Positions 2,460 to 50,474 of a DNA stretch of 64,000 nucleotides are shown in pieces. This stretch comes from a bacterium (GTDB lineage Bacteria > Zhuqueibacterota > Zhuqueibacteria > Residuimicrobiales > Krinioviventaceae): the NCBI GenBank assembly GCA_963675755.2, contig CAXXMD010000003.1, forward strand, positions 1,440,001 to 1,504,000, in the 5' to 3' direction. The position numbers and the translations under genes were made by a program. The notes beneath the pieces were generated by a model. The model was not told the origin of the DNA and searched no databases. It saw only the letters and a list, made by a program, of their open reading frames with translations. The number at the start of each line of letters is the position of its first letter. Positions within the stretch are counted from its first letter, which is position 1.

Positions 2460-2657
2460 ATCAATTTCCTCAGGTTTATTCTTTTCTTACTGCATACAAC
2501 AACACAGTACCGTGGAATCTTTCAATAAAATATTGGAATAGTAAATATAATATTTATATTACAGAAATGAAAAAATAATTTCCATTTTAACGGTTTGATA
2601 TCATTAACCATAGATAAAAGCCAATAAAGAACATTGGCTACATAAAGATTTTTATAA

Positions 2658-2690
2658 TTAGCCACGGATTGACACAGATCAACACGGATT
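2658..2690 (+). repeat. GxxExxY-associated 10-bp-period repeat, forward copy
   Basis: TTAGCCACGGATTGACACAGATCAACACGGATT: three CAC(G/A)GAT units at 10-bp spacing. Confidence 0.85.
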
Positions 2691-2758
2691 CTATTAACGA
2701 TTTATTGTTGCTCTTTCTAGAAAGATTTTGATTTAACAAATAATAATTGGGGGATTAA

Positions 2759-3121
2759 ATGGAACATAAAGAAATTACAGAATCCATTATTGGCTCAGCT
2801 TTTGAAGTTTATAATACGCTTGGATTCGGGTTCCTTGAAAAAGTTTATCAAAAAGCAATGCAGGTTGAATTGATTAAAAGAGGTCATCAGGCAGAAACCG
2901 AACACCCTGTCAAAGTATTTTATAAAAACATAACTGTAGGTGAGTATTTTGTAGATTTATTTGTTGATAATCTGGTTATTGTCGAATTCAAAATTGCTGC
3001 TATCTATAATTCTAAAGATGAGAGCCAATTATTAAATCTTTTAAAAGCAACAGGAATCAAAGTAGGATTACTCATCAATTTTGGAAAAACAGAAGTAGAA
3101 TTCAAAAGATTTGTATATTAA
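2759..3121 (+). CDS. GxxExxY protein (PD-(D/E)xK nuclease-like)
   Basis: GFLEKVY motif, D..E-x-K core (VDLFVDNLVIVEFK), GLLINFG C-terminal motif; 120 aa. Confidence 0.93.
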   Translation: MEHKEITESIIGSAFEVYNTLGFGFLEKVYQKAMQVELIKRGHQAETEHPVKVFYKNITVGEYFVDLFVDNLVIVEFKIAAIYNSKDESQLLNLLKATGIKVGLLINFGKTEVEFKRFVY

Positions 3122-3184
3122 ATCTGTATCATTCTGCTTGTCTGTATTTGATGAATGTAGGTCTGTAACCCTAAAAATTTTTTT

Positions 3185-3216
3185 TTAGCTACGGATTAAC
3201 ACGGATCTTTACAGAT
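3185..3216 (+). repeat. GxxExxY-associated repeat, forward copy
   Basis: TTAGCTACGGATTAACACGGATCTTTACAGAT. Confidence 0.85.
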
Positions 3217-3364
3217 AAAAACATAACATATTCCTTGGAATTTTTGTTGCTTGTTTTTATTAACGACCACAAATTGAATATCACTTGAATCTTTTTTATC
3301 TCGTGTGGTAGAGAATATCTGGTTTTCTATAAGTTCAAGTAATTTCAGGATTAAATTGTTTTTT

Positions 3365-3396
3365 ATCCGTGTTAATCCGTGAAAATCTGTGGCTAA
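3365..3396 (-). repeat. GxxExxY-associated repeat, reverse copy
   Basis: ATCCGTGTTAATCCGTGAAAATCTGTGGCTAA is the reverse complement of TTAGCCACAGATTTTCACGGATTAACACGGAT. Confidence 0.85.
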
Positions 3397-3502
3397 AAAT
3401 TTTTTAAATTAATAATACCTCAAGATCATTGTATTAAATTCATTTTAATGATATAAAGAGAATAATTATAACATCTTGATAAATAAACCCAGGAGAGCAA
3501 GC

Positions 3503-5716
3503 ATGAAATATTTCTACGCTATACTTTTGATACTGTTCACAGCATTTTCACTATACGCAATAGTACCGGGATCGGTAACAGACGATCCCTTTATTCAGGA
3601 AGTCCATATACCGTTTCCACTGGATAATGATGCCGCCAACGACGTTCGTTCGGTTGCAGTCGATACAGATGGCAAGATCTGGGCCGCAACCCGGGAAGGC
3701 ATCTATTCTCTCGAGTCAGGTACCTGGAAGTCCTGGTCTACTGGAGAAAACAAGGGGCCCGCTTATGATATTTCTGTCGCAAAAGACGGCTCTCTCTGGA
3801 TCGGTGCCTGGAACGGTGCATATCTTTTAAAAAATGACAACCTCTCCAAAATTGAGGGCATCGACTCGCCGGTTAGCGTGATTCGTGCATACGACGAGGT
3901 TATCGCATTAGGACCCAAAGGCCAGTGGAAAATCACCGGCAACAGCGCAAAGGCACTGAATTGGGATATAGCCCTGTCAGCAAGGGACATGATCAAAGAT
4001 GTGAATAAAGGATACTGGATCAGCACAGATGTCGGCTTGTTTTACAAAACAGAGTCCGATACAAAATTCATTCAAAATGTTGAAAACCTGGTGGGTAACG
4101 CCCTGACTTCTCTTGCCTGGTCGCAAGACAAAACCTTGTGGATTGGCGGACTGGGTGGTATTACCCTCTATCGTAATGGCAAACGTGTAGGTCACCTGAC
4201 CCACAAAGAAGGATTGATCAGTATTGACGTATACTGTCTTGAAAGCGCACCGGATGGCGCCATGTGGGTGGGCACTAAACAGGGTATTGCCCGATACAAC
4301 AATCTGGAGTGGTCCATGCGTTACAGCCGAAGATGGCTGTTGGACAATGAAGTTCGGGATATTGCTTTTGATGGGGCAGGTAATGCCTGGGTTGCCACTG
4401 CCGGTGGTGTGAGTAAAATTGAACGCCGTACAATAACCATGGCACAAAAAGCCGACTATTACCAGCGTATTCTGGAAGATCGTCATATACGTCCCCCCTA
4501 TATTGTAGAAAAAATTAACCTGATGTCTCCCGGAGATACCACCAAATGGGAACCCCGCGATGATGACAATGACGGACAGTACACCAGCATGTACCTGGCC
4601 ATGGAAAGCTACCGCTACCAGGTTACCAATAACCCAAAAGCCAAAGACAATGCTAAAAAAGCATTTGATGCTTTGAAATATTTACAAACCGTAACCGAGA
4701 CAGATGGTTTTTTTGCACGCACAGTGGTTCCTGTTGAATGGAACCGCATGATGGATCCCAACCATGTCTTTACTCCGCAGGAACAGGCGGACAGGCTGGT
4801 AGACAATGCCCGCCAGAAATATGTTCCGGAATTGTGGCGGTTGTCCAGTGACGGCAAATGGTACTGGAAAGGCGATACAAGCAGCGATGAAGTAACCGGC
4901 CACATGTATGGCTATTTCATTTATTATGATCTCATTGCAAAATATGATAAAAAAGAAAAGAAACGCGTTGCCGACCATGTCTGCAAAATTGTGGACTATA
5001 TCATTGATGGCGGTTACAATTTTATCGATATTGACGGCACCCATACCAAATGGGGTGTATGGGCACCTGATAAACTGAACGGTTCTCCTGATTGGTCTAC
5101 GGAGCAATATATCAACTCTACCGAACTGCTTTCTTATCTCAAACTGGCATATGTCGTCAGTGGTGACCAAAAATATCAGGACAAATATCTGGAGCTGATC
5201 CACAAACACGGCTACCTGGAAAATGCCCGTCACGCACGTTCAACCAATCCTACATTCATCACCCATATTGACGATGAGCTGTTGGCTCTGGCTTATCCCG
5301 TATTGCTAATGTATGAAAAAGATCCCGAGATCCTCAAAGTCTATCGTCAGAGCGTAAACCGCTGGCACCGCACCAATGAAGCGGACAACAGCCCGTATTT
5401 CAACTTTACCTACGCGGCGCTGACCGGTTACGATCCCAATCTTGACAAATCCATTGCCTACCTGCGTGACGTATCGCTCGACCTGGTGGGCTGGGATATG
5501 GATCTGAGCAAGCGTGAAGATCTGAACATCATCCGTTACCCCGAGTTTGAGAACCAGATGATTGACCGCATGGTCCCCCCCAGTGAATTGATGGTTCTGC
5601 GCTGGGACCGGAATCCCTGGTACGCCAAACGCGGCTATGGCGGCCGTATTGAAAGCGACGGCGTTTTCTGGCTGCTGCCCTACTGGATGGGCCGCTATTA
5701 CGGATTGATCAAGTAG
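3503..5716 (+). CDS. Secreted protein: N-terminal two-component-regulator-type beta-propeller plus uncharacterised helical C-terminal domain
   Basis: Signal peptide MKYFYAILLILF; repeated D.DG.(I/L)W.(A/G)T..G propeller motifs; start placed at ATG 3503 after AGGAG. Confidence 0.7.
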   Translation: MKYFYAILLILFTAFSLYAIVPGSVTDDPFIQEVHIPFPLDNDAANDVRSVAVDTDGKIWAATREGIYSLESGTWKSWSTGENKGPAYDISVAKDGSLWIGAWNGAYLLKNDNLSKIEGIDSPVSVIRAYDEVIALGPKGQWKITGNSAKALNWDIALSARDMIKDVNKGYWISTDVGLFYKTESDTKFIQNVENLVGNALTSLAWSQDKTLWIGGLGGITLYRNGKRVGHLTHKEGLISIDVYCLESAPDGAMWVGTKQGIARYNNLEWSMRYSRRWLLDNEVRDIAFDGAGNAWVATAGGVSKIERRTITMAQKADYYQRILEDRHIRPPYIVEKINLMSPGDTTKWEPRDDDNDGQYTSMYLAMESYRYQVTNNPKAKDNAKKAFDALKYLQTVTETDGFFARTVVPVEWNRMMDPNHVFTPQEQADRLVDNARQKYVPELWRLSSDGKWYWKGDTSSDEVTGHMYGYFIYYDLIAKYDKKEKKRVADHVCKIVDYIIDGGYNFIDIDGTHTKWGVWAPDKLNGSPDWSTEQYINSTELLSYLKLAYVVSGDQKYQDKYLELIHKHGYLENARHARSTNPTFITHIDDELLALAYPVLLMYEKDPEILKVYRQSVNRWHRTNEADNSPYFNFTYAALTGYDPNLDKSIAYLRDVSLDLVGWDMDLSKREDLNIIRYPEFENQMIDRMVPPSELMVLRWDRNPWYAKRGYGGRIESDGVFWLLPYWMGRYYGLIK

Positions 5717-5734
5717 TTATTATTTCTTTTTTTC

Positions 5735-5811
5735 ATCCGTGTCGATCTGTGAGGATCTGTGGCTATTATAAAATTGTTTTCAGCCACGGATTGTCACAGA
5801 TCATCACGGAT
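5735..5811. repeat. Inverted pair (reverse + forward) of GxxExxY-associated repeats forming a hairpin
   Basis: ATCCGTGTCGATCTGTGAGGATCTGTGGCT, an AT-rich spacer, then AGCCACGGATTGTCACAGATCATCACGGAT. Confidence 0.85.
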
Positions 5812-5888
5812 AATACCTAAAACAACCTCCTTTGTAGCCTCTGCTGCTTTAGTATTTTTTATCCTTTTTCACACTTTTTTAAATGACA

Positions 5889-6110
5889 TGATCACCGGGT
5901 GTCTATATTCCAGACGGAATGATACCACCGGACATGTATCCGGTTCTCCGGGGCGAATGTCCCGATGTTAACTCCGCCCGGACCCTGAGTTCGAACGAGT
6001 CCGCTGTCTCTTAGCGGACGAGTGAGAGTATCGAAGGGCCGGGAGGAAAAACAATATGAATATGATCTCCAGGTATGAATTCTTGCCGGCACTCTGGTAC
6101 CGGACGATCA
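5889..6110. repeat. 222-bp structured element, copy 1 (candidate ncRNA or MITE)
   Basis: Ungapped match to 8183-8404 (22 mismatches by hand count); imperfectly complementary ends; nested hairpins. Confidence 0.9.
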
Positions 6111-6200
6111 AGGTACAACTATCAGACACCTGACAAGGCCTTCGCTTAAATCATCAACCCTAACAAAACCATAATCTATCAATTAGCATTCAAACCTAAA

Positions 6201-6276
6201 TGCCCCGTTAGGGACAAAATATTTATAGAACTGTAAAAATGAGAATTCGCATGCCGTCAGGTATGCAATATCGTAG
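6201..6276. repeat. REP-like hairpin doublet
   Basis: TGCCCCGTTAGGGACA...GCATGCCGTCAGGTATGC: two hairpins with CCGTYAGG cores, each followed by AATAT..TAGA. Confidence 0.55.
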
Positions 6277-6449
6277 AGTTTTATCATATATAAAAACCGT
6301 GAAATCCTGTTTTTTTTCATATTGACTATTATATTCTCAATCATTAATTTTTAAAAATGGTGGGATTAAAACAACTTTTCATGGGTCTCTAATTCTCTTA
6401 AATCATTAAATTTTAATACCGTACTATTTTTATAAACAAAAGGATTTCC

Positions 6450-8117: not shown

Positions 8118-8182
8118 TTCTTATTAGAGGGATTATAAGGTTTAAAATATTATATTGCTTTTTTTATTACCAATCACAAATA

Positions 8183-8404
8183 TGATCACCGGGAGTATTT
8201 ATGCCTAGCGGAATGATACTACCGGACATGTATCCGGTTCTCCGGGACGAATGTCCCGATGTTAACTCCGCCCGGACCCTGAGTTCGAACGAGTCCGCTG
8301 TCTCTTAGCGGACGAGAGAGAGTATCGAAGGGCCGGAAGTAAAAACAATATGAATATGATCTCCAGGAATGAATTACACCCGACACTATAGTACCGGGTG
8401 ATCA
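8183..8404. repeat. 222-bp structured element, copy 2
   Basis: Direct repeat of 5889-6110; bounded by perfect 8-bp inverted ends TGATCACC...GGTGATCA. Confidence 0.9.
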
Positions 8405-27723: not shown

Positions 27724-27756
27724 TTAGCCACAGATAAACACAGATTCACGCTGATT
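27724..27756 (+). repeat. Solo GxxExxY-associated repeat
   Basis: TTAGCCACAGATAAACACAGATTCACGCTGATT. Confidence 0.75.
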
Positions 27757-50401: not shown

Positions 50402-50474
50402 TGGCGCCTCCCAGAATCGAACTGGGGACACAGGGATTTTCAGTCCCTTGCTCTACCGACTGAGCTAAAGCGCC
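50402..50474 (-). tRNA. tRNA-Phe (GAA)
   Basis: Reverse complement GGCGCTTTAGCTCAGTCGGTAGAGCAAGGGACTGAAAATCCCTGTGTCCCCAGTTCGATTCTGGGAGGCGCCA folds as a cloverleaf; CCA not encoded. Confidence 0.97.

What the first reader, a model, noticed from the sequence alone, without database searches (positions are those of the whole stretch)
2630..5811. GxxExxY nuclease-like gene embedded in an oriented array of 10-bp-period repeats: candidate undescribed mobile or cassette system
Seen: a ~32-bp motif, TTAGC-[CAC(G/A)GAT-N3]x3, occurs at 2658 (forward, F), 3121-3175 (degenerate reverse, R, starting at the GxxExxY stop), 3185 (F), 3365 (R), 5735 (R) and 5782 (F), with a TGGCTA remnant at about 2635. R and F copies meet across short AT-rich linkers and can form hairpins. 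These junctions separate the GxxExxY gene, a ~150-bp non-coding segment and a large secreted-protein gene. The 10-bp period is about one helical turn. Established: GxxExxY proteins are PD-(D/E)xK-like and, to my knowledge, have no assigned function; the D..ExK core is intact here. Inference: the layout parallels RAYT/REP systems, but with a PD-(D/E)xK enzyme. Model A: F..R are terminal inverted repeats of an element mobilised by GxxExxY. Model B: R-linker-F hairpins are attC-like cassette junctions.
Basis: partly seen in the sequence, partly recalled or inferred. Interest (0 to 1): 0.82.

Follow-up and report, generated by a model that had tools for sequence, protein, structure and literature searches.

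The report
Nuclease gene flanked by phased repeats
A tiny nuclease gene of unknown function sits between mirror-image arrays of a 7-base motif spaced one DNA turn apart, and the same gene-plus-repeat package recurs across many bacterial phyla, which points to an undescribed kind of selfish or mobile DNA element.

Summary
The repeats are real: five strong copies of TTAGCC-[CACRGAT-N3]x3 lie at the stated places, against 0 expected by chance. The gene is a bona fide GxxExxY/PF13366 protein.

The pattern extends well beyond the window:
- All 8 GxxExxY paralogs of this genome adjoin phased heptamer arrays, and each paralog has its own heptamer.
- 53 of 63 GxxExxY loci from many phyla, and 32 of 37 metagenome loci, have flanking inverted arrays. 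Only 21 of 600 control genes do.
- The arms of one element match each other and not those of other elements.
- Heptamers are conserved, while spacers vary.
- Heptamer type tracks protein distance.
- Array counts track gene copy number across 167 genomes (rho 0.50).
- Gene-less arrays are dispersed and strictly intergenic (0 of 53 inside long ORFs).
- A sister species has the same outer repeats at this site but different cargo.

I found no target duplication, no clean empty site, no adjacent integrase and no RAYT link.

Best reading (about 0.5): a REP/RAYT-like system in which a minimal Cas4-like nuclease recognises phased heptamers. The mobility mechanism is inferred, not shown. Four-helix-bundle (Avd-like) genes show a parallel architecture.

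The parts
2658..2691 (+). F1 array: TTAGCC terminus plus three CACRGAT heptamers at 10-nt period, 69 nt upstream of the GxxExxY start codon
   Evidence: 2663-2689, 0 mismatches; nhmmer E 3.8e-10. Homology with the sister species ends inside it at 2675.
2759..3121 (+). GxxExxY gene (120 aa), a minimal Cas4/RecB-like PD-(D/E)xK nuclease; a GGGGGA Shine-Dalgarno-like run lies just upstream
   Evidence: PF13366 E 3e-37; TIGR04256 E 2e-37; AlphaFold2 pLDDT 96.7; best fold match 4ic1, SSO0001; D66 and K78 invariant, E76 and Q90 nearly so.
3122..3175 (-). R' array, degenerate: four TCTG-type units roughly in 10-nt phase, starting at the stop codon
   Evidence: Read. Not detected. Position matches the R arrays of other paralogs.
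3185..3216 (+). F2 array (two mismatches), ortholog of the single F array of the sister species
   Evidence: (E 1.5e-06).
3217..3364 (.). Non-coding remnant between F2 and R2. By eye, its start and its last 27 nt resemble the ends of a 128-aa lipoprotein-like cargo ORF present in the sister species.
   Evidence: Only the last 27 nt align cleanly; the similarity at the start is my own reading of the two sequences.
3365..3396 (-). R2 array ending in GGCTAA, identical in the sister species
   Evidence: 0 mismatches; E 8.5e-11.
5735..5765 (-). R3 array just after the stop of the Reg_prop gene; one half of a tight R-linker-F pair
   Evidence: (hairpin z -8.7); conserved in the sister species.
5782..5811 (+). 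F3 array, the other half of the R-linker-F pair (16-nt AT-rich linker, 5766-5781)
27729..27755 (+). Further solitary copy of the same array family
   Evidence: 2 mismatches; genome C3:1467718-1467756, E 0.00025.

Best explanation
The GxxExxY gene and the phased heptamer arrays form one co-evolving genetic unit. It is a compact element of about 0.45-0.7 kb: an outer terminus (here TTAGCC), three copies of a 7-nt motif at a 9-10 nt period, the 120-aa nuclease gene, and the same array inverted.

Proposed working (inferred): several protomers of the nuclease bind the heptamers on one face of double-stranded DNA at both ends of its own gene, and also at gene-less arrays elsewhere. Cleavage there promotes copying or exchange of whatever lies between or beside the arrays, by recombination that leaves no target duplication, in the manner of homing or gene conversion. 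Gene-less arrays (solo, F-short-R, and tight R-linker-F pairs) would be non-autonomous derivatives, like REP/REPIN sequences for RAYT.

The units carry no obvious promoter or terminator. They sit co-oriented inside host operons and so probably ride on host transcription.

Shown: the association, the specificity of arm pairing, the conservation of heptamers over spacers, the genome-level co-occurrence, the intergenic dispersal, and the turnover between related species.

Inferred: protein-heptamer binding, cleavage, and the route of spread.
For: 1. In this genome all 8 PF13366 genes have phased heptamer arrays next to the start and/or stop codon. The heptamers differ by paralog: CACGGAT, CACGAAT, CACGAAG, CGCAGAG, CACAGAG, CACAGAT. 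6 of the 8 pass the inverted-repeat score.

2. Across taxa, 53 of 63 loci score above the 95th percentile of 600 control genes (21 of 600), and 44 of 63 score above the 99th (5 of 600). In a second set from metagenomes the figures are 32 of 37 and 31 of 37.

3. Arms pair specifically. Real upstream/downstream pairs have a median score of 35; mismatched pairs have a median of 18.

4. Arm-to-arm mismatch is 10.8% in heptamers against 29.3% in spacers (11 elements, Fisher p 0.0013). All six heptamers of an element change together.

5. Heptamer distance rises with protein distance (Mantel r 0.21; 2 of 2000 permutations reach it). The closest relatives of the window protein (63-73% identity) carry the same TTAGCC-CACGGAT ends. 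By their record titles they come from KSB1, Victivallales, Spirochaetales, Planctomycetaceae, Chthoniobacterales and Verrucomicrobia. The paralogs in the same genome are only 31-51% identical.

6. The CACRRA x3 pattern gives 1921 hits in 167 genomes of the phylum, against about 24 for the reversed control. Counts correlate with PF13366 copy number (Spearman 0.50). 8 of 14 gene-less genomes have no array.

7. There are 53 copies of the CACGGAT family in the genome. 0 of 53 lie inside ORFs of 150 aa or more, which cover 87% of the genome. Homology between copies mostly stops at the array or array pair, 35-95 nt.

8. Turnover between close relatives:
- The sister species has the same F and R at the window's site but a different cargo (the same form appears in contigs of runs X3/X4).
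- Only 3 GxxExxY loci are at shared positions between the two species, which have 8 and 5 copies.
- In another genus, one intergenic site holds a gene-bearing unit, unrelated arrays, or a mini F-18nt-R unit of another heptamer type.

9. The catalytic D, E and K are conserved. The fold is closest to Cas4 SSO0001, lambda-type exonucleases and RecB-type domains. About 59 of the 150 best database hits are two-domain fusions, which suggests a dimeric working unit.
Against: - No target-site duplication. Direct repeats at element ends are no commoner than with permuted partners, for k = 3-8, in 54 elements.
- No clean filled-versus-empty pair. Every comparison showed replacement or mosaic change.
- No evidence of excised circles. 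Only assembled contigs were available.
- Gene copies within a genome are old (31-51% identity), so there is no sign of recent bursts. Some units are stably inherited at one site across five Pontiella/Kiritimatiellales genomes.
- A 120-aa PD-(D/E)xK core has no separate DNA-binding domain. To my knowledge there is no precedent for such a protein as the sole enzyme of a mobile element.
- PF05635 genes, which are not nucleases, have a parallel layout (22 of 29). The arrays may therefore serve a purpose that needs no nuclease.
- The co-occurrence is imperfect. One genome has 47 arrays and no detected gene (85% complete). 22 of 153 gene-bearing genomes have no CACRRA array, although other heptamer classes were not counted.
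- Co-variation of protein and heptamer could partly reflect shared descent.
Confidence: 0.5

Rival explanations
1. RNA-level device. In the read-through operon transcript, the upstream and downstream arrays pair into a long imperfect stem. The stem is cut (for example by RNase III) or insulates the inserted ORF, as in the ORF-bearing intervening sequences of 23S rRNA. The repeats exist to make the insertion harmless and to control translation of the small gene.
For: The gene is co-oriented with its neighbours in 39 of the 42 loci whose flanking genes share one orientation. Units sit inside pheS-pheT, atpA-atpG, E2-E3 and def operons. F arrays often end 7-13 nt before the start codon. PF05635 genes, whose family name comes from 23S rRNA intervening sequences, have the same layout. 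The R-linker-F pair folds strongly.
Against: Differences between the arms show no G-U bias: 44 transitions compatible with wobble on the sense strand against 53 on the antisense strand, plus 138 transversions. Spacers mismatch at 29%, which would leave 7-bp helices broken by 3x3 loops. A stem does not require all units to share one sequence, nor a 9-10 nt period. Solo arrays, and gene-less pairs between unrelated genes, are common.
Confidence: 0.17
2. Hitch-hiking cargo. The arrays are moved or maintained by some other, unlinked host or element factor. GxxExxY genes, four-helix-bundle genes and occasional other ORFs are merely cargo that has become trapped between arrays.
For: Cargo between the same F and R differs between sister species: a nuclease gene in one, a lipoprotein-like ORF in the other. 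Large host genes are bracketed by array pairs. One genome has 47 arrays with no GxxExxY gene detected. A non-nuclease family shows the same layout.
Against: The same heptamer type travels with the same protein subfamily across several phyla. Several heptamer types coexist in one genome, each beside its own paralog. That is hard to explain with one host factor. The 4 Y1_Tnp genes have no array within 1 kb. Integrases are distant.
Confidence: 0.15
3. Pure autoregulation. The arrays are operators through which the small protein represses its own gene (and perhaps read-through into neighbours), with no role in movement. Dispersed arrays form a small regulon or are decaying relics.
For: The 9-10 nt phasing of direct repeats is typical of cooperative binding on one DNA face. 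The F arrays abut the ribosome-binding region.
Against: This does not explain the inverted copy downstream of the stop codon, the many gene-less arrays confined to intergenic DNA, the turnover between species, or the conserved nuclease residues.
Confidence: 0.1
4. Integron-like cassettes. R-linker-F hairpins are attC-like sites recombined by a tyrosine recombinase.
For: The R-linker-F junctions are imperfect palindromes of 85-98 nt with strong hairpin potential. Cargo differs between the same outer repeats in two species.
Against: No integrase is nearby. The 4 PF00589 genes lie tens of kb or more from every array cluster I compared. The arrays are dispersed. Single units sit inside operons in other phyla. 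The arms are built of direct heptamers rather than the attC R/L boxes (the attC anatomy is recalled, not tested).
Confidence: 0.03

Closest known systems
REP / REPIN sequences with their RAYT (TnpA-REP, Y1 HUH) enzyme
   Same: A single small enzyme gene is flanked by inverted copies of a short repeat. That repeat is also dispersed, as singlets and inverted doublets, in intergenic DNA of the same genome. Repeat type co-varies with the enzyme lineage, and the enzyme is often inherited stably. One locus (L024) even shows the gene flanked by two F-loop-R doublets.
   Different: The enzyme is a PD-(D/E)xK nuclease, not a Y1 HUH protein. The genome's own Y1_Tnp genes are unrelated to the arrays. Each repeat is an array of three direct heptamers at helical period, not a small palindrome. 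Several paralogs with distinct repeats coexist in one genome.
Insertion sequences and MITEs with terminal inverted repeats carrying multiple subterminal transposase-binding sites
   Same: Inverted ends of 30-40 nt are built from repeated short sites. Gene-less short derivatives (F-18 to 255 nt-R) exist. Adjacent units form abutted end pairs.
   Different: No known transposase family is present. No target duplication. No near-identical copies. At about 0.45-0.55 kb the compact units are shorter than any autonomous insertion sequence I can recall (this size comparison is from memory, not from a call).
ORF-bearing intervening sequences of 23S rRNA and other PF05635 (four-helix-bundle, Avd-like) genes
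   Same: A gene of about 120 aa lies between inverted repeats, in many copies per genome in the same organisms (150 of 167 genomes). 22 of 29 loci have flanking inverted arrays.
   Different: The protein fold is different (the protein matches PHROG 'Avd protein of DGR'). The repeat unit is 7-8 nt and contiguous. The window's element is not in an rRNA gene. That such elements are excised from rRNA at the RNA level is recalled, not tested here.
Cas4 / RecB / lambda-exonuclease branch of PD-(D/E)xK nucleases
   Same: Best fold matches are 4ic1 (SSO0001), LHK-Exo, AdnAB, MGME1 and lambda exonuclease. The acidic-acidic-lysine core plus a following conserved Gln is conserved.
   Different: Only the 120-aa core is present. 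There is no cysteine cluster and no extra domains. TM-score is only 0.58 and identity 14%. There is no link to CRISPR here. No PDB relative is detectable by sequence.
Free-standing homing endonuclease genes
   Same: A small nuclease gene sits in intergenic DNA without a target duplication, with a patchy cross-phylum distribution. Spread by cleavage of a cognate site followed by copying is possible.
   Different: None of the classical homing families is present. The putative target would be the element's own flanking arrays. No intron or intein context. Cleavage is untested.
Integron attC cassettes
   Same: Imperfect palindromic junctions lie between unrelated cargo genes.
   Different: No IntI, no attI/Pc platform, dispersed rather than arrayed.

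Membership tests
GxxExxY / PF13366 PDDEXK_3 | Match to the family profile above the curated cut-off | tested here: met
   PF13366 128 bits (cut-off 22); TIGR04256 128.1 bits (cut-off 35).
GxxExxY / PF13366 PDDEXK_3 | GxxExxY motif and D...ExK catalytic core | tested here: met
   G24, E27, Y30, D66, E76 and K78 are present. G24, E27, Y30, D66 and K78 are invariant and E76 nearly so in 58 sequences.
REP/RAYT system | Enzyme is a Y1 HUH transposase (PF01797) | tested here: not met
   The enzyme is PD-(D/E)xK. The 4 PF01797 genes of the genome have no array within 1 kb.
REP/RAYT system | Enzyme gene flanked by inverted copies of a repeat that is dispersed in intergenic DNA | tested here: met
REP/RAYT system | Repeat is a short imperfect palindrome with a conserved 5' tetranucleotide (recalled definition) | tested here: not met
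   A single array is three direct heptamers with no internal palindrome.
TIR transposon / MITE | Terminal inverted repeats | tested here: met
   Arms are 84% identical over the aligned parts in 44 elements.
TIR transposon / MITE | Target-site duplication | tested here: not met
   No excess of direct repeats at the ends of 54 elements, k = 3-8.
TIR transposon / MITE | Transposase of a known family | tested here: not met
   The only ORF is PF13366. It has no hit in PHROGs or PADLOC.
Integron cassette / attC | Adjacent IntI tyrosine recombinase and a single cassette platform | tested here: not met
   The 4 PF00589 genes lie at C2:549682, C2:2254394, C3:604557 and C3:3502359. None is near the window's arrays at C3:1442652-1445820.
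Integron cassette / attC | attC fold with R/L boxes and extrahelical bases | not tested
   Only generic hairpin potential was computed.
Cas4 family | RecB-type nuclease core | tested here: met
   Best fold hit 4ic1, E 2.4e-4, probability 1.00.
Cas4 family | Four-cysteine iron-sulfur cluster module and cas gene neighbourhood (recalled definition) | tested here: not met
   The 120-aa protein has no cysteine (sequence). Its neighbours are a metallophosphoesterase and a Reg_prop protein.
Homing endonuclease gene | Cleaves the gene-less allele and is copied into it | not testable with these tools
   Needs a biochemical or genetic assay.

The most novel reading that the evidence does not exclude
GxxExxY units are a new class of autonomous mobile element, and the smallest I know of (about 0.45-0.55 kb; size comparison recalled). 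Their only protein is a 120-aa Cas4-like nuclease. It reads a 7-nt word repeated once per helical turn in its own ends and spreads, without target duplication, by cutting cognate arrays and being copied into them. Because the heptamer changes in step with the protein across tens of thousands of lineages, the family would hold a natural, readable protein-DNA recognition code. The four-helix-bundle/Avd-like genes would be a second, independent case of the same way of life.
Probability: 0.35. Interest if true: 0.92.

Novelty: new variant of a known kind. Interest (0 to 1): 0.8.

Why it matters
PF13366/GxxExxY is a very large family with no assigned function. It has 40,894 clusters at 50% identity with E<=0.001 and 18,958 with E<=1e-10. 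It occurs in 153 of 167 genomes of this phylum, at up to 14 copies per genome.

The link shown here gives the family its first concrete, testable hypothesis: the protein binds and cuts phased 7-nt words. It also predicts the substrate for each member from its own flanks.

The link would explain a class of intergenic repeats that clutter many environmental and gut bacterial genomes, Bacteroides among them. It would also explain why intergenic regions inside conserved operons differ between close relatives.

If the enzyme-repeat pairing is real, it is a second, mechanistically distinct counterpart to REP/RAYT. It could also be a source of compact, sequence-programmable nucleases.

The parallel layout around Avd-like four-helix-bundle genes hints at a broader principle: small nucleic-acid-binding proteins encoded between arrays of their own sites.

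Tried and rejected
Literature. Searches for 'GxxExxY' (3 papers), 'PDDEXK_3' (1 paper), the family accessions and names (26 papers) and RAYT/REPIN/nuclease/heptamer (15 papers) found no description of repeats around these genes.
- I read one passage of PMC8934634, which only mentions a GxxExxY domain next to a reverse transcriptase.
- I read one table row of PMC3424549, which lists PF13366 as 'Unknown'.
- All other papers were seen only as search listings.
- A search for 9-nt words of the repeat returned only primer-type hits and is useless.
The supplement of PMC3424549 may hold genomic-context notes on PF13366 that I could not see.

Rfam: only a tRNA in the window; nothing at the repeats.

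PDB by sequence: no relative. The best hits had E 0.027 and 0.46 and are not credible.

Homodimer prediction: no verdict.

Sequencing runs: no RNA holder listed, and only assembled contigs, so expression, RNA ends and excised circles could not be examined. Laying contigs only re-found the sister-species form in X3/X4. A part without cover in X5 says nothing.

Phage collection: no match at E<=1e-5. Plasmid collection: 7 records, mostly very large replicons, so there is no sign that phages or plasmids are the usual carriers.

Clean empty sites were sought in G001 for four G000 loci and in three other genera. Only mosaics or replacements were found. One search was swamped by an unrelated repeat. 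The loci were not analysed further.

The strict triple-heptamer test (18 of 65 triple, 42 of 65 double) undercounts degenerate arrays. I replaced it with the alignment score.

The window's own element scores 21, below the threshold of 23. Its proximal R' is degenerate, and the intact R2 lies outside the 220-nt flank used.

Rows dropped:
- 4 of 67 gene hits for flanks shorter than 120 nt.
- 1 of 30 PF05635 loci.
- 5 of 52 metagenome loci left out as partial matches, and 10 of the remaining 47 for short flanks.

Several metagenome loci are duplicates of one another or of L024: L142/L143; L152/L154/L155; L174/L176, with L175 a near-copy (same flanks, one base different in the aligned arm); L178/L179; L181/L182; and L151 = L024. 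The Pontiella, L018/L033, L068/L071 and G000/G001 loci are orthologous sets. The counts are therefore not all independent.

Tallies include the unpublished genomes G158 and G162. Without them the Spearman coefficient is 0.4955. No locus from them was read.

Full report
WHAT IS IN THE WINDOW

The pattern CACRGAT-N3 repeated three times matches at 2663(+), 3365(-), 5735(-) and 5785(+) without mismatch, at 3190(+) with two mismatches, and at a further place, 27729(+). Shuffles of the window give none.

Each forward (F) copy is preceded by TTAGCC or a close variant. Each reverse (R) copy is followed by GGCTAA. AT-rich DNA lies outside.

The ORF at 2759-3121 is a full-length PF13366/TIGR04256 GxxExxY protein.

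The sequence just after its stop codon (3122-3175) holds four TCTG-type units roughly in 10-nt phase. That is a degenerate R copy, too weak to be called on its own.

The R-linker-F junction at 5726-5820 has strong hairpin potential (z -8.7). The junction at 3121-3221 does not (z -2.0). The 'TGGCTA remnant' is not supported.

THE REPEAT FAMILY IN THE GENOME

The window lies in a 6.48-Mb genome.
- There are 25 exact copies of the triple heptamer.
- A profile search finds 53 copies with E<0.05, at 23 loci.
- None of the 53 lies inside an ORF of 150 aa or more, although such ORFs cover 87% of the genome.
- Neighbouring copies form 12 tight R-then-F pairs, with 2-10 nt between profile envelopes in 11 of them. 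They also form 8 F-then-R pairs 96-2452 nt apart.
- Between loci, homology usually ends at the array or array pair, 35-95 nt.

A blind scan for any 7-mer repeated three times at 9-11 nt gave 103 raw hits, against 11 in a shuffled genome. After merging, more than half belonged to one class, C-(A/G)-C-R-R-A-N.

THE LINK TO GxxExxY GENES

The genome has eight PF13366 genes. One is frameshifted. Reading their flanks shows phased heptamer arrays beside every one. Usually there is an F array 10-70 nt before the start codon and an R array just after the stop.

The heptamer differs from paralog to paralog: CACGGAT in the window; CACGAAT; CACGAAG (period 9); CGCAGAG; CACAGAG/CACAAAG; and CACAGAT with an extra module. 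One locus has R-type arrays on both sides. One has different heptamers at its two ends.

I then fetched 26 loci of relatives from public genomes, 5 from the sister species and 29 from other members of the phylum. For each I scored the best local alignment between the 220 nt upstream and the reverse complement of the 220 nt downstream.
- 53 of 63 testable loci exceed the 95th percentile of 600 ordinary genes of this genome (21 of 600).
- 44 of 63 exceed the 99th percentile (5 of 600).
- Upstream flanks paired with other loci's downstream flanks score like the controls: median 18 against 35.
- The window's own unit scores 21, because its near R copy is degenerate.
- A second set from metagenomes gives 32 of 37 and 31 of 37. 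Several of those loci are duplicates.

By their record titles, the organisms include KSB1, Victivallales, Spirochaetales, Planctomycetaceae, Verrucomicrobia, Kiritimatiellae, Bacteroidota, Acidobacteria and a gammaproteobacterium. A cultured Bacteroides finegoldii record shows the same layout between radA and its neighbour.

WHAT KIND OF CONSTRAINT ACTS ON THE REPEATS

In 44 elements the two arms are about 84% identical. Their differences are 44 transitions that a sense-strand RNA stem would tolerate as G-U, 53 that only the antisense strand would tolerate, and 138 transversions. There is therefore no signature of selection for pairing in RNA.

In the 11 elements where the register could be set without gaps, arm-to-arm mismatch is 10.8% in heptamers and 29.3% in spacers (p 0.0013). 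The register was chosen from one arm, so the test is only partly independent.

The 9-10 nt period, the identity of all units within an element and the free spacers are what one expects of several copies of one protein reading one face of duplex DNA. That is an inference.

Heptamer distance rises with protein distance (Mantel r 0.21; 2 of 2000 permutations). Shared descent contributes to this figure.

More telling is the comparison of relatives and paralogs. The window protein's nearest relatives (63-73% identity) come from several phyla and keep the same TTAGCC-CACGGAT ends. Its paralogs in the same cell (31-51% identity) have other heptamers. So the specificity determinant appears to travel with the unit, and the unit holds only this gene.

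GENOME-LEVEL CO-OCCURRENCE

Across 167 genomes of the phylum:
- PF13366 is present in 153.
- The pattern CACRRA x3 at period 9-10 occurs 1921 times, against about 24 for the reversed control.
- Array count and gene count correlate (Spearman 0.50; 0.4955 without two unpublished genomes).
- 8 of 14 genomes without the gene have no array.

There are exceptions. One 85%-complete genome has 47 arrays and no detected gene. 22 gene-bearing genomes have no array of this particular class. Related genomes are not independent, so the p-values overstate the case.

TURNOVER

The sister species G001 is 92-93% identical in the flanks. It has the same F start and the same R at the window's site, but between them a 128-aa lipoprotein-like ORF instead of the nuclease gene. 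Homology breaks at 2675, inside F1, and resumes at 3338, 27 nt inside R2.

The window's F2...R2 segment looks like a deleted remnant of that cargo. The block F1-gene-R' looks like an addition placed exactly against the outer end of F2 (my reading). Contigs of two public runs show the G001-type form. They may be the same organism as G001 and are not independent support.

G000 has eight GxxExxY genes and G001 has five. Only three are at shared positions. One of those is broken by a stop codon in G001, and another aligns only in part.
- Where G001 has a CACAAAG-type unit, G000 keeps only its F array followed by a mini F-25nt-R unit of another type.
- At another site the whole intergenic region is replaced.

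In a different genus, one intergenic site holds a gene-bearing CACGAAG unit, unrelated periodic arrays, or a mini CAGGAT unit, in three species.

By contrast, five Pontiella/Kiritimatiellales genomes keep a unit at one site, after def.

I found no clean empty site, and no excess of direct repeats at the ends of 54 elements.

CONTEXT OF INSERTION

Of 57 loci with a neighbour ORF on each side, 42 have co-oriented neighbours. In 39 of those 42 the GxxExxY gene points the same way (neighbours were taken as the longest ORF, which is a rough call).

Pfam confirms units between pheS and pheT, atpA and atpG, the E2 and E3 genes of a 2-oxoacid dehydrogenase, FlpD and folD, and def and an acetyltransferase.

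Many units leave only 7-13 nt between the F array and the start codon, and 3-20 nt between the stop codon and the R array. They seem to live on host read-through transcription.

THE PROTEIN

AlphaFold2 with 58 sequences gives a confident alpha-alpha-beta-beta-beta-alpha-beta-beta fold (pLDDT 96.7).

The best matches among solved structures are Cas4 SSO0001 (4ic1, E 2.4e-4, TM 0.58), lambda-type and alkaline exonucleases, the AdnAB nuclease domain and MGME1, with Hjc-type resolvases further down. No solved relative is detectable by sequence.

Conservation across the 58 sequences:
- Invariant: G24, E27, Y30, D66, K78 and F108.
- Nearly invariant: E76, Q90, N107 and R117.

The family has 40,894 clusters at 50% identity with E<=0.001. 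About 59 of the 150 best hits are two-domain fusions of 240-295 aa, which hints at a dimeric unit. A homodimer prediction gave no verdict.

The family is absent from PADLOC and PHROGs and was not found in the phage collection.

A SECOND FAMILY WITH THE SAME LAYOUT

PF05635 genes encode a four-helix bundle. The copy in this genome matches the PHROG 'Avd protein of DGR'. They occur in 150 of 167 genomes.

22 of 29 loci have flanking inverted arrays above the control threshold. Here the arrays are contiguous 7-8 nt units such as the AGCTATCA type.

This widens the phenomenon and cuts both ways. It suggests a general way of life for small nucleic-acid-binding proteins. It also shows that a nuclease is not required for the layout.

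INTERPRETATION

The association is solid. The mechanism is not.

I favour (about 0.5) a REP/RAYT-like relationship, in which the nuclease recognises the phased heptamers and promotes TSD-less copying or exchange at arrays.

The rivals are:
- an RNA stem or processing device (0.17);
- arrays moved by another factor, with the genes as cargo (0.15);
- pure autoregulation (0.1);
- integron-like cassettes (0.03). No integrase is nearby.

The genome's Y1_Tnp genes are not associated with the arrays.

Statements about RAYT/REP biology, 23S rRNA intervening sequences, Avd, Cas4 cysteine clusters, attC anatomy and the sizes of insertion sequences are recalled, not taken from a call.

NOVELTY

My literature searches found nothing on repeats around GxxExxY genes. 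The one systematic survey I could open lists the family's function as unknown. The library lacks most subscription journals, and supplements were closed, so prior description cannot be excluded.

I rate this a new variant of a known kind: an enzyme with cognate dispersed repeats. There is a substantial chance that it is a categorically new mobile element.

Noticed in passing
window 5888-6294 and 8181-8365 (also L055 9176-9233 and 12044-12449): Another repeat of about 200-400 nt, unrelated to the heptamer arrays, occurs twice in the window. In the sister species two copies bracket an extra 2.8 kb that carries a 320-aa ORF and a 571-aa membrane-protein-like ORF. Rfam finds nothing there.
   Followed up: partly
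G000 C3:33536-33850 (L016) and 29 loci L106-L135: Four-helix-bundle PF05635 (Avd-like) genes are flanked by inverted arrays of contiguous 7-8 nt repeats (AGCTATCA type and others): 22 of 29 above the control threshold.
   Followed up: partly
G000 C3:110824-111063, 112910-113146, 115421-115684, 115795-116013 (L002): A hairpin-rich module of about 200 nt, made of several short perfect palindromes in series, follows F arrays and is repeated four times. It translates into spurious ORFs. Its nature is unknown.
   Followed up: no
G000 C3:640254-641783 and C2:1962992-1963932: ORFs that resemble RHS/YD-repeat C-terminal tips, with small downstream ORFs, lie between or beside R-linker-F pairs that share the same linker. 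They may be orphan toxin-immunity modules duplicated together with the arrays. This is judged by eye only.
   Followed up: no
L055 6127-6513 (G001) and G000 C2:41900-42410: Small lipoprotein-like ORFs occupy, in one species, intergenic sites where the other species has a GxxExxY unit. They may be a second kind of variable intergenic cargo.
   Followed up: no
proteins P0001-P0043 and others: About 59 of the 150 best-scoring database relatives are tandem two-domain GxxExxY proteins of 240-295 aa.
   Followed up: no
G000 C3:2628049-2628330 (L014) and G001 L059: One GxxExxY copy in G000 is frameshifted near its start, and the G001 ortholog of another carries an in-frame stop. Their arrays are still intact.
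   Followed up: partly
G000 C3:1104190-1104270 and C3:105370-105440: Arrays of other heptamer classes (CACAGAG/CACAAAG types) are nested inside the short F...R segments of the CACGGAT family, so different array families pile up at the same intergenic spots.
   Followed up: no
window 50402-50474 (-): A tRNA gene, the only Rfam match in the window.
   Followed up: no
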